Under the pieces are notes generated by a model. That model was not told where the DNA came from. It saw only the letters and a program-made list of their open reading frames with translations, and ran no database searches. A stretch of 64,000 bases of DNA, taken from contig JAJFLM010000335.1 in assembly GCA_021772655.1 (NCBI GenBank), positions 34,941-98,940 of the forward strand. Reading direction: 5' to 3'. The stretch is from Deltaproteobacteria bacterium. Lineage in GTDB: Bacteria > UBA10199 > 2-02-FULL-50-16 > JAJFLM01. The translations under genes and the position numbers were made by a program. Position 1 is the stretch's first letter. Each line of letters begins with the position of its first letter. This document shows positions 43,836-44,133 of this stretch, piece after piece.

Positions 43836-43968
43836 TTTAACAGGTCGAATGGTAGTACGGTTATCCCAATTGTAATGGGCTACTCTAGGTTCGAATCCTA
43901 GTCAGGGGAAACTCTGGTAGTGTAATGGTAACACAGCTAAACCCGTGCCCAGTAACTTATCTGTTATT
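43836..43968 (+). ncRNA. Y-RNA-like element A (YrlA-type, with a circularly permuted tRNA-like module)
   Basis: Closing helix AACAGGT-C-GA / TT-ATCTGTT with a bulged C followed by G-U and A-U. Upper stem TGG..GTACGG / CCGTGC-CCA, then GGTTATC. Next come T arm CTAGG-TTCGAAT-CCTAG, hairpin TCAGGG-GAAA-CTCTGG, and TA + D arm GTGT-AATGGTA-ACAC. Confidence 0.7.
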
Positions 43969-43977
43969 TAATATTAA

Positions 43978-44055
43978 GCTTCTGTCTTCTAAATGGAATA
44001 GGAACCTTGGTTTTCACCCAATGGAATGCGAGTTCGAATCTCGTCGGAAGCTCCA
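43978..44055 (+). tRNA. tRNA-Glu (TTC)
   Basis: Acceptor GCTTCTG/CGGAAGC. D arm TTCT-AAATGGAATA-GGAA. Anticodon loop TTTTCAC. T arm GCGAG-TTCGAAT-CTCGT. U73 plus CCA. Confidence 0.75.
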
Positions 44056-44057
44056 GT

Positions 44058-44133
44058 TTAATAGGCCGAATGGTAGTACGGTTATCTTTACCATTAAAAA
44101 ACCCCGTGCCCAGTAACTTGTCTATTAATTTTT
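44058..44133 (+). ncRNA. Y-RNA-like element B (simple stem-loop type)
   Basis: Closing helix TTAATAGGC-C-GA / TT-GTCTATTAA with the same bulged C. Shares CGAATGGTAGTACGGTTATC and ACCCGTGCCCAGTAACTT with element A but lacks the tRNA-like insert. Ends in TTTTT. Confidence 0.7.

What the first reader, a model, noticed from the sequence alone, without database searches (positions are those of the whole stretch)
43836..44133. Two more Y-RNA-like genes inside the tRNA array, one equal to the other plus an inserted module
- Elements A (43836-43968) and B (44058-44133) flank tRNA-Glu(TTC).
- They share nearly identical arms: 5' (A/T)AGG(T/C)CGAATGGTAGTACGGTTATC and 3' ACCCGTGCCCAGTAACTT(A/G)TCT.
- These arms pair as a lower stem, bulged C, GA/TT, TGG/CCA, then GTACGG/CCGTGC.
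- B closes with a short loop and a T5 run. A instead carries a ~75-nt tRNA-like insert at the apex.
- The ORF track's 43925-44116 ORF runs through them and is probably spurious.
- Together with the three downstream copies, the window holds at least five Y-RNA-like genes, which is an unusually large complement for one Ro gene.
Basis: seen in the sequence. Interest (0 to 1): 0.7.

Follow-up and report, generated by a model that had tools for sequence, protein, structure and literature searches.

The report
Phage Y RNAs inside tRNA array
The two elements are real, conserved small-RNA genes of the Y RNA kind, the partners of the Ro60 protein that this phage also encodes; one carries a tRNA-shaped module and the other is its short sister copy, so they are new members of a known family and not a new kind of element.

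Summary
A (43836-43970) and B (44057-44131) each fill the gap between two tRNA genes, about 0.8 kb upstream of an intact Ro60 gene (44871-46472). Three more copies, C, D and E, follow the Ro stop codon.

All five share the Ro-binding signature: GNCGAA(N)G with a bulged C, G·U and A-U closing pairs, a GGUUAYY motif, and a 5'/3' terminal stem. A covariance model of the stem finds only these five in 64 kb. It finds 199 further copies next to Ro in 82 related viral loci, every one on the Ro strand.

Covariation supports the stems: 83-96% of cells are paired, against 55% or less in slid controls. In A it also supports the T, acceptor-like and D helices and the 15:48 Levitt pair.

A and D have YrlA architecture, a circularly permuted tRNA mimic. 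B is a paralog of A (arms 89% identical, both stem differences compensatory) without the module, most likely through loss.

Rfam thresholds miss all five. Five copies per Ro is not unusual among phages: 13 of 64 loci have five or more, and the maximum is eight.

Verdict: new members of a known kind. Ro binding and processing by tRNA nucleases are inferred, not shown.

The parts
43759..43832 (+). tRNA-Asp(GTC), CCA encoded; ends 3 nt before element A
   Evidence: ARAGORN; Rfam tRNA 50.2 bits
43836..43970 (+). Element A: long Y RNA of YrlA architecture (Ro-binding stem plus a permuted tRNA-like module)
   Evidence: R1 67.8 bits, R2 46.3 bits; five helices covary; Rfam YrlA partial hit
43844..43851 (+). 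A: GNCGAAN0-1G motif (GTCGAATG); C43846 is the bulged C
   Evidence: Read from the sequence; motif defined in PMC4201824
43859..43865 (+). A: GGTTATC, which contains the YUAY that opens the V region
   Evidence: Invariant GGTTA in alignments A3 and A5
43865..43879 (+). A: V stem-loop (CCCA / 7-nt loop AUUGUAA / UGGG)
   Evidence: RNAfold; the tRNA model aligns it as an anticodon arm followed by the T arm
43885..43901 (+). A: T arm (CUAGG-UUCGAAU-CCUAG)
   Evidence: Rfam YrlA alignment; 100% paired with 3/5 pairs compensatory across 13 homologs
43902..43917 (+). A: acceptor-like (AS) hairpin, 6 bp closed by GAAA
   Evidence: All 6 pairs show compensatory changes without sequence conservation
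43918..43934 (+). A: UA dinucleotide plus D arm (GUGU-AAUGGUA-ACAC)
   Evidence: Rfam YrlA alignment; 100% paired; Levitt 15:48 partner U43884 covaries, 7 U:A and 4 C:G
43942..43970 (+). A: 3' arm (CCCGTGCCCAGTAACTTATCTGTTATTTA)
   Evidence: Pairs with the 5' arm
43978..44055 (+). tRNA-Glu(TTC); starts 7 nt after A and ends 1 nt before B
   Evidence: ARAGORN; Rfam 44.4 bits
44057..44131 (+). Element B: short Y RNA, a paralog of A without the tRNA-like module. GNCGAANG at 44065-44072, apex 44087-44101, T5 at 44129-44133
   Evidence: R1 72.5 bits, R2 55.0 bits; arms 89% identical to A with two compensatory pairs
44136..44213 (+). tRNA-Glu(CTC); starts 4 nt after B
   Evidence: ARAGORN; Rfam 61.2 bits
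44871..46472 (+). Ro60 / Rsr gene (533 aa; TROVE ring plus vWA domain with DxSxS MIDAS)
   Evidence: Pfam; PDB 1yvp, 2nvo, 9nen at E about 1e-116
46477..46552 (+). Element C: short Y RNA, starts 4 nt after the Ro stop codon
   Evidence: R1 60.5 bits, R2 51.8 bits; weak full-length alignment to Rfam Y_RNA
46555..46676 (+). Element D: long Y RNA (T arm, 7-bp AS with an extension, D arm; no V arm)
   Evidence: R1 54.5 bits, R2 29.5 bits; in alignment A5; called as a tRNA when un-permuted
46679..46747 (+). Element E: short Y RNA, ends 1 nt before tRNA-Val (46749)
   Evidence: R1 61.6 bits, R2 53.5 bits

Best explanation
A and B are two of five phage-encoded Y RNAs, the small non-coding RNA partners of the Ro60 protein encoded in the same tRNA array.

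Shown by the sequence and by comparison:
- In each RNA the 5' and 3' ends pair into a stem that holds GNCGAA(N)G with a bulged C, closed by G·U and A-U pairs.
- This is the type of helix that Ro60 recognises in characterised Y RNAs.
- A is a YrlA-type Y RNA. Its apex is a circularly permuted tRNA mimic, in the order V arm, T arm, closed acceptor-like stem, UA, D arm, with the Ro-binding stem standing where the anticodon stem would be.
- B has the same Ro-binding module closed by a 15-nt apex, and is a recent paralog of A.

Inferred:
- The array is transcribed as one long precursor. A and B are released by the enzymes that mature the flanking tRNAs: RNase P at the downstream tRNA 5' ends and the 3'-end maturation nucleases at the upstream tRNAs. 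Only 1-7 nt separate them from the tRNAs, and no promoter or terminator signal exceeds chance.
- The RNAs bind the phage Ro60 ring.
- The long forms tether Ro60 to a host tRNA-binding or exoribonucleolytic effector such as PNPase, as in the RYPER complex.
- The short forms gate or occupy Ro60 without that tether, or present a different effector site.
- Together they would give one Ro protein several RNP states during infection.
For: Ro gene:
- An intact Ro60 lies on the same strand, 740-900 nt downstream.

Specificity of the stem model:
- The motif and architecture are shared by five elements in the window and five in the sister phage L001.
- Stem model R1 hits only those five in the window's 64 kb, both strands, filters off.
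- Model R2 was built only from hits in other loci, yet scores A at 46.3 and B at 55.0 bits. It finds 199 hits in 83 sources, all on the Ro strand.

Covariation:
- 85% of cells paired on 10 sequences.
- 83% paired against 55% or less in slid controls, with 15/19 pairs compensatory, on a MAFFT alignment of 31 short forms.
- 96% paired against 47% or less, with 24/32 pairs compensatory over all five helices, on a MAFFT alignment of 13 long forms.
- The tertiary Levitt pair is 7 U:A and 4 C:G with no exception.
- The A/B differences within the stem are compensatory.

tRNA-like module:
- The Rfam YrlA model aligns A's T-AS-D region in the right order (23.8 bits, E 0.0027 on the element alone).
- When A and D are cut in the AS loop and closed across the Ro stem, ARAGORN calls both as tRNAs at default settings. 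It calls neither in native order, and 0 of 200 shuffles.

Match to the literature:
- PMC4201824 defines the GNCGAAN0-1G motif, YUAY, the V/T/AS/D arms, a location within 4 kb of Ro on the same strand, and co-processing of YrlA and YrlB from one precursor.
- The phage phiLo Ro60 binds two adjacent Y-like RNAs and forms a complex with host PNPase (PMC12135203).
Against: - No expression data, so discrete RNA species and their ends are not shown.
- Rfam gathering scores are not reached: YrlA 23.8 against 69 for A; no hit for B or D; Y_RNA 12.9 against 38 for C.
- Folding energies are not exceptional against shuffles.
- The GA/UU pairs never vary, so covariation cannot test them.
- R1 was trained on the window's own elements. 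R2 descends from R1's hits, so the two models are not fully independent.
- The effector of the tRNA-like module is unknown even in model bacteria (10.1101/312249).
- The host of this phage is unknown.
Confidence: 0.8

Rival explanations
1. The elements are decayed tRNA genes or inert spacer hairpins of the tRNA array. A's T and D arms would be remnants of dead tRNAs and the terminal stem would be fortuitous.
For: They lie inside a 30-tRNA array. The tRNA model gives a weak partial hit on A (14.1 bits). YrlA is itself thought to derive from dimeric tRNA transcripts (10.1101/312249).
Against: - The terminal stem and the GNCGAA motif are conserved with compensatory changes across dozens of phages.
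- The elements track the Ro gene and its strand in 199 of 199 hits.
- There are no hits elsewhere in the tRNA array or in the other 59 kb of the window.
- The T-before-D order with a closed acceptor stem is conserved, not random decay.
- There is no special similarity to the phage's own tRNAs.
Confidence: 0.04
2. The hairpins are cis-acting processing, stability or termination signals for the polycistronic tRNA / Ro transcript, not trans-acting RNAs.
For: They abut the tRNA ends by 1-7 nt. B is followed by a T5 run. C, D and E directly follow the Ro stop codon.
Against: - The terminator scan finds nothing on the + strand here and nothing above chance (5 against 3.9 expected).
- The stems are AU-rich with internal loops, unlike intrinsic terminators.
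- A conserved sequence motif and a folded tRNA-like module are not needed for a processing hairpin.
- The same family is a documented Ro-bound RNA in bacteria and in phage phiLo.
Confidence: 0.05
3. They are Y-type RNAs whose main role does not depend on the phage Ro. The tRNA-like modules of A and D would act as decoys or sponges for host tRNA-targeting enzymes, such as anticodon nucleases, modification enzymes or RNase P, protecting or complementing the phage tRNA set.
For: They sit in a tRNA array. They are close tRNA mimics. [quoted passage not shown]
Against: B, C and E lack the module but keep the Ro-binding stem. The strict linkage to Ro and the conservation of the Ro-binding helix argue that Ro binding is the selected feature. 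There is no anticodon loop at the anticodon-stem position.
Confidence: 0.08
4. ORF 43925-44116 (63 aa) is a real gene and the RNA-like features are incidental.
For: An ATG-initiated ORF exists.
Against: It reads through the entire tRNA-Glu(TTC) gene and parts of both Y elements. It has no PHROG match. Conservation in homologs follows RNA pairing, not a reading frame.
Confidence: 0.01

Closest known systems
YrlA RNAs (Rfam RF02553; S. Typhimurium, M. smegmatis, mycobacteriophages; Chen et al. 2014, PMC4201824; structure PDB 6cu1, 10.1101/312249)
   Same: A and D share these features with YrlA:
- the GNCGAAN0-1G motif near the 5' end, and YUAY;
- an optional V arm and a T arm placed 5' of the D arm;
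- a variable closed acceptor-like stem between the T and D arms;
- a covarying Levitt pair;
- a location within 1 kb of Ro60 on the same strand, next to tRNA genes.
   Different: - The sequences are too divergent for the Rfam gathering score (23.8 against 69; D has no hit).
- Both strands of the Ro-binding helix are recognisable (5' GG-Y-[C]-GA paired with 3' UU-R-YC). In Salmonella and M. smegmatis only the 5' strand is.
- D has UU instead of UA before its D arm.
Short bacterial Y RNAs (S. Typhimurium and M. smegmatis YrlB, D. radiodurans Yrn2)
   Same: B, C and E are 69-76-nt hairpins with the GNCGAA motif. They are encoded beside a YrlA-type RNA and Ro, and are probably cut from the same precursor.
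   Different: No sequence homology was tested, because no public model for YrlB exists in Rfam. B's apex is A/U-rich, not pyrimidine-rich. B is demonstrably a paralog of the neighbouring long form.
Metazoan Y RNAs (RF00019) and nematode stem-bulge RNAs (RF01656)
   Same: - The terminal stem has a bulged C followed by G·U and A-U pairs.
- B's 5' strand CCGAAUGGUAGUACGGUUAU matches 17 of 19 positions of the Rfam Y_RNA consensus from CCGAA to UUAU (consensus line).
- Two short relatives (L066 4811, L038 2687) pass the RF01656 gathering score.
   Different: - These are not Pol III genes, and the U run after B is not a demonstrated terminator.
- Rfam Y_RNA scores are below threshold.
- The helix is one base pair shorter between the GG and the bulge.
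- Metazoan Y RNAs have no tRNA-like module.
Thermus phage phiLo Yrl1 / Yrl2 with phiRo60 (PMC12135203)
   Same: Phage-encoded Ro60 with adjacent Y-like RNAs that contain the CGAA motif. Binding to Ro and ternary complexes with host PNPase were shown there.
   Different: The window's Ro is far closer to canonical Ro60 and Rsr (E about 1e-116) than to phiRo60 (E 2e-6). It has five RNAs instead of two, some with tRNA-like modules, and they are embedded in a tRNA array.

Membership tests
YrlA (Chen et al. 2014 / Rfam RF02553), elements A and D | GNCGAAN0-1G motif near the 5' end | tested here: met
   A has GTCGAATG (43844-43851) and D has GCCGAAAG.
YrlA (Chen et al. 2014 / Rfam RF02553), elements A and D | T stem-loop 5' of the D stem-loop, both tRNA-like, with a paired but sequence-variable AS hairpin between them | tested here: met
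   Rfam YrlA alignment of A over model positions 30-81. Across 13 homologs the T arm is 100%, AS 92% and D arm 100% paired, and AS has 6/6 compensatory pairs.
YrlA (Chen et al. 2014 / Rfam RF02553), elements A and D | tRNA tertiary signature: covarying Levitt pair (15:48) and a UA linker before the D arm | tested here: met
   Levitt pair is 7 U:A and 4 C:G with 0 mismatches. A has UA; D has UU, a deviation.
YrlA (Chen et al. 2014 / Rfam RF02553), elements A and D | Encoded within 4 kb of a Ro60 ortholog on the same strand | tested here: met
   A ends 900 nt upstream of Ro and D starts 83 nt downstream, both on the + strand.
YrlA (Chen et al. 2014 / Rfam RF02553), elements A and D | Score at or above Rfam's gathering threshold (69 bits) | tested here: not met
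   A scores 23.8 bits as a partial hit. D has no hit at E <= 10. None of 20 related viral loci reach it either.
YrlA (Chen et al. 2014 / Rfam RF02553), elements A and D | Bound and stabilised by Ro60/Rsr; carries tRNA modifications (pseudouridine 55, dihydrouridine) | not testable with these tools
   Needs RIP, Northern blotting, or CMC primer extension.
Y RNA in the broad sense (Ro-binding module), elements A and B | 5' and 3' ends pair into a stem that holds the conserved bulged helix recognised by Ro60 | tested here: met
   Lower stem 87-98% paired with 7-8 compensatory pairs. The bulged C is invariant. The closing G·U is present in 59/61 and the A-U or G-U in 59/61 homologs.
Metazoan Y_RNA (Rfam RF00019) | Score at or above the gathering threshold (38 bits) | tested here: not met
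   Only C gives a hit, 12.9 bits at E 6.2. A and B give none.
Short bacterial Y RNA (YrlB / Yrn2 type), element B | Long hairpin with the GNCGAA motif and a small pyrimidine-rich loop, encoded next to YrlA and Ro | tested here: inconclusive
   The hairpin, the motif and the location are met. The apex UUUACCAUUAAAAAA is A/U-rich, not pyrimidine-rich. No curated model exists to test homology.
Ro60 / Rsr (protein partner, 44871-46472) | TROVE HEAT-repeat ring plus a vWA domain with a MIDAS motif | tested here: met
   Pfam TROVE 6.2e-35 and vWA_Ro60 2.3e-54. D371, S373 and S375 are invariant. PDB 1yvp 1.5e-116 and 2nvo 1.7e-116 over the full length.

The most novel reading that the evidence does not exclude
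Ro-encoding phages carry modular Y-RNA libraries: head-to-tail arrays of up to eight Y RNAs per Ro gene, in which a constant Ro-binding stem is combined with interchangeable apical modules. The modules seen are a permuted tRNA mimic, an un-permuted tRNA, short loops and extra hairpins.

In this phage the library is built into the tRNA operon, so tRNA-processing enzymes would make the Y RNA ends. Short forms such as B would arise from long forms by loss of the module and act as competing gates.

A lineage-specific addition: B's apical loop (UUACCAUUA) is complementary to the D loop of A (UAAUGGUAA). The same relation holds between elements 2 and 4 of the sister phage L001. This could let a short Y RNA pair with, and unfold or dimerise with, the tRNA-like module of a long one.
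Probability: 0.15. Interest if true: 0.7.

Novelty: new member of a known kind. Interest (0 to 1): 0.42.

Why it matters
- It adds a fully resolved example of a phage Ro60 gene with a complete set of five Y RNAs, from a phage lineage with no cultured relative (DNA polymerase 27% identical or less to any deposited phage).
- Curated Rfam models miss this whole branch of phage Y RNAs, so they remain unannotated. In Mycobacterium phage JayJay one of them lies under an annotated 'hypothetical protein'.
- These RNAs join a metazoan-like two-stranded bulged helix to a YrlA-type tRNA mimic. That links the bacterial and animal Y RNA types more directly than the Salmonella and mycobacterial examples do.
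- The close A/B pair is a natural with-and-without-module experiment. It could help identify the still unknown effector of the tRNA-like domain.
- The tight packing between tRNAs makes a testable prediction about how Y RNA ends are made.

Tried and rejected
- Megablast of 43000-47500 against deposited phages found nothing.
- An exact 20-mer of the shared arm in IMG/VR found nothing.
- The search for related loci with the single Ro protein found nothing. It needed a 17-protein alignment.
- The window's own contig could not be retrieved, and its cluster has no name or accession, so host and record stay unknown.
- Rfam at gathering thresholds gave only tRNAs. Narrow E-value searches gave one partial YrlA hit for A, nothing for B or D, and a non-significant Y_RNA hit for C.
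- The promoter and terminator scan was not above chance, so independent transcription units are not supported.
- I tested whether A's or D's module derives recently from one of the phage's own tRNAs. Only generic T-loop and D-loop similarity was found.
- I tested whether complementarity between short-form loops and D arms is general. It is not: mean longest run 4.1 against 3.97 in shuffles. Only the window (9 nt) and L001 (8 nt) show it.
- I looked for further Y copies in the structured 225 nt upstream of Ro. The models find none.
- The supplementary tables of Chen et al. 2014 and the 2020 Annual Review were not available. I therefore could not check whether multi-copy phage arrays were already tabulated.

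Full report
**Setting**

The window is part of a phage genome. It encodes a DNA polymerase, helicases, a sigma factor, a large terminase and NAMPT. The contig is about 120 kb. It has no close relative among deposited phages: megablast finds nothing, and the DNA polymerase is at most 27% identical to any deposited phage.

From 37.2 to 50.8 kb the + strand carries a tRNA array. ARAGORN tRNAs. Two more tRNA-Arg genes were missed by ARAGORN and Rfam. Inside the array, ORF 44871-46472 is an intact Ro60:
- Pfam TROVE 6e-35 and vWA_Ro60 2e-54.
- Full-length matches to Xenopus Ro60, Deinococcus Rsr and human RO60 structures at E about 1e-116.
- The MIDAS residues are invariant among relatives.

**The observation**

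Element A (43836-43970) fills the gap between tRNA-Asp and tRNA-Glu(TTC). Element B (44057-44131) fills the gap between tRNA-Glu(TTC) and tRNA-Glu(CTC). Spacers to the tRNAs are 3, 7, 1 and 4 nt.

GGTAGTACGGTTATC occurs exactly twice in the window.
- The arms are 89% identical, against 60-78% for every other pair among ten elements.
- The four differences inside the lower stem form two compensatory pairs: C-G to U-A, and U-A to C-G.
- RNAfold recovers the lower stem, UGG/CCA and GUACGG/CCGUGC.
- The energies are not special against shuffles (z = -1.2 and -1.7). Thermodynamics alone would not carry the claim.
- B has a 15-nt apex and a T5 run at 44129-44133. A has a 73-nt apex.
- Three further copies follow the Ro stop codon: C 46477-46552, D 46555-46676 and E 46679-46747. 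E ends 1 nt before tRNA-Val.

**Is it more than chance?**

I built a covariance model of the two stems only (R1, 19 base pairs) from the five window elements and five elements found directly after Ro in the closest relative. That relative is L001, an ENA contig of 126 kb whose Ro is 57% identical and is surrounded by 31 tRNAs.

- With filters off, R1 finds the five elements in the window at 54-72 bits. The next-best hit in 64 kb scores 14.6 bits.
- In 82 viral contigs that encode a Ro relative, R1 finds 67 matches.
- A second model, R2, was built only from those 67 matches. It finds 199 matches in 83 sources, every one on the Ro strand.
- R2 contains none of the window's sequences, yet scores B, E, C, A and D at 55.0, 53.5, 51.8, 46.3 and 29.5 bits.

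**Covariation**

It is not met.

| Alignment | Cells paired | Slid controls | Pairs with compensatory change |
|---|---|---|---|
| 10 founding sequences (MAFFT) | 85% | 37-52% | 13 of 19 |
| 31 short forms from many loci (MAFFT, structure-blind) | 83% | 41-55% | 15 of 19 |
| Model-fitted alignment, which leans toward the structure | 93% | 50% or less | 16 of 19 |

The pairs next to the bulged C (G·U, then A-U or G-U) are nearly invariant. Covariation therefore says nothing for or against them.

**What A's apex is**

The apex reads, in order:
- YUAY, within GGUUAUC.
- A 4-bp hairpin with a 7-nt loop (V).
- CUACU.
- A 5-bp T arm with loop UUCGAAU.
- A 6-bp hairpin closed by GAAA (AS).
- UA.
- A 4-bp D arm with loop AAUGGUA.

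This is the YrlA architecture as defined by Chen et al. 2014 (PMC4201824). The supporting tests:
- The Rfam YrlA model aligns A's T-AS-D segment in the right order. The score is only 23.8 bits against a gathering score of 69 (E 0.0027 on the element alone).
- On a MAFFT alignment of 13 long forms (A, D, two from L001 and nine from other loci), all five helices hold: 96% of cells paired against 47% or less when slid.
- In that alignment 24 of 32 pairs have compensatory changes, including all six AS pairs, whose sequence is not conserved.
- The tertiary Levitt pair covaries without exception. This pair joins D-loop position 15 to the last nucleotide before the T stem, and reads 7 U:A and 4 C:G.
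- As a direct test of permuted tRNA mimicry, I cut A and D in the AS loop and closed them across the Ro stem with an arbitrary 7-nt loop and a CCA tail. ARAGORN calls both as tRNAs at default settings, neither in native order, and 0 of 200 shuffles. The loop and tail are my additions, so this shows geometry only.

**What B is**

B has the same Ro-binding module closed by a short apex. This is the pattern of the short second Y RNAs of bacteria (YrlB, Yrn2). The 5' strand of A and B is also strikingly close to the animal Y RNA consensus printed by Rfam: 17 of 19 positions from CCGAA to UUAU. Two short relatives pass the gathering score of nematode stem-bulge RNAs. Rfam itself reports nothing for B.

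**Direction of the A/B difference**

A, B and L001 element 4 are each other's nearest relatives (0.76-0.89 arm identity). A and L001 element 4 both carry a homologous V-T-AS-D module. The simplest history is duplication of a long form followed by loss of the module in B, not insertion into A.

B's apex resembles that of L001 element 2 (CUUUACCAU). Gene conversion of the arms onto an older short gene therefore cannot be excluded.

**Copy number**

By R2, non-redundant loci hold this many copies:

| Copies per locus | 1 | 2 | 3 | 4 | 5 | 6 | 7 | 8 |
|---|---|---|---|---|---|---|---|---|
| Loci | 16 | 22 | 6 | 7 | 8 | 3 | 1 | 1 |

- About half of the elements start within 20 nt of the previous one.
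- Cultured phages show the same thing without annotation. Streptomyces phage Beuffert has 4-5 hits interleaved with tRNAs. Mycobacterium phage JayJay has 3, one of them under a hypothetical CDS.
- Five per Ro is therefore above what has been characterised experimentally, but it is ordinary for Ro-encoding phages.
- Being sandwiched singly between tRNA genes is rarer in this set. Only 3 elements start, and 6 end, within 15 nt of a tRNA. The window contributes 2 of the 3 and 3 of the 6.

**How it most likely works**

Shown:
- The genes exist, are conserved, are linked to Ro and fold as described.

Inferred from the families:
1. There is no room or signal for separate promoters or terminators. 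The array is therefore probably one precursor, and A and B are released when the flanking tRNAs are matured. Co-processing of YrlA and YrlB from one precursor is documented in M. smegmatis.
2. The bulged GNCGAA helix binds the phage Ro60.
3. The tRNA-like module of A and D recruits a tRNA-binding or exonucleolytic partner. PNPase is the precedent (RYPER; phiLo), but the YrlA effector is still unknown.
4. The short forms B, C and E occupy or gate Ro without that tether.

**Comparison and novelty**

These are new, divergent members of the known Y RNA / YrlA kind, in a novel phage.
- They fail Rfam's score thresholds but meet every architectural criterion I could test.
- Unlike Salmonella and mycobacterial YrlA, they keep both strands of the animal and Deinococcus-type helix.
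- The arrays of up to eight copies and the variety of apical modules seen in the related loci are, as far as I could check in the accessible literature, not described. I could not see the supplementary tables of the 2014 paper or the 2020 review.

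Noticed in passing
window 43376-43448 and 43620-43692: Two tRNA genes missed by ARAGORN and by Rfam at threshold. They have 7-bp acceptor stems, encoded CCA, and anticodon loops CUUCGAA (Arg-UCG) and UUUCUAC (Arg-UCU). They align with the ARAGORN-called tRNA-Arg(tcg) and tRNA-Arg(tct) of L001, which brings the array to 30 tRNAs. The listed ORF 43295-43624 runs through the first one and ends 4 nt into the second.
   Followed up: partly
window 44646-44870: The 225 nt between tRNA-Thr(GGT) and the Ro start codon are GC-rich and structured (MFE -72.5 kcal/mol, z -2.3). 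They hold two identical 19-nt hairpin units, CAAGCGGGTGAGAGGCCCG, at 44724 and 44810. There is no Rfam or Y-model hit, and the motif is absent from all 86 fetched loci. It may be a 5' UTR or another RNA.
   Followed up: partly
window 44087-44098 versus 43923-43931; L001 7706-7713 versus 7989-7996: B's apical loop UUACCAUUA is the exact complement of A's D loop UAAUGGUAA (9 nt). The same holds for L001 elements 2 and 4 (8 nt). It is not a general property of short forms in other loci (mean longest run 4.1 against 3.97 in shuffles).
   Followed up: partly
L008 1348-2924; L073 1320-2243; L025 4866-5591: Head-to-tail arrays of 8, 7 and 6 Y-like RNAs next to Ro in uncultivated viral contigs, with spacers of a few nucleotides, mixing short and long forms.
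   Followed up: partly
L025 5025-5171 (tRNA hit 5074-5140); L073 1819-1960 (tRNA hit 1867-1929): These have Y-type terminal stems whose apex is an un-permuted tRNA (D arm, anticodon arm, T arm; Rfam tRNA 46.9 and 41.9 bits) in place of the permuted T-AS-D module. This is a different way of fusing a tRNA shape to the Ro-binding stem.
   Followed up: no
L085 (Mycobacterium phage JayJay) 2560-2912; L086 (Streptomyces phage Beuffert) 412-851 and 1564-1797: There are unannotated Y-like RNAs upstream of Ro in cultured phages. In JayJay two of them overlap the annotated hypothetical CDS at 2594-2755. In Beuffert they are interleaved with tRNA-Ile and tRNA-Ser.
   Followed up: partly
L002 5460-5620 and 5710-5870: tRNA-like genes whose D and T halves are separated by insertions of about 80-90 nt at the anticodon region. 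They may be intron-containing or split tRNAs. They lie between Y-like RNAs upstream of another phage Ro, and ARAGORN does not call them.
   Followed up: no
window 37314-37709, 38222-38509, 40154-40735, 39646-40101: Two PHROG-matched HNH endonuclease genes (37314-37709, 40154-40735) and a third HNH-like ORF by sequence inspection (38222-38509), and an RF-1-domain (ArfB/ICT1-like peptidyl-tRNA hydrolase) gene, are interspersed in the tRNA array.
   Followed up: no
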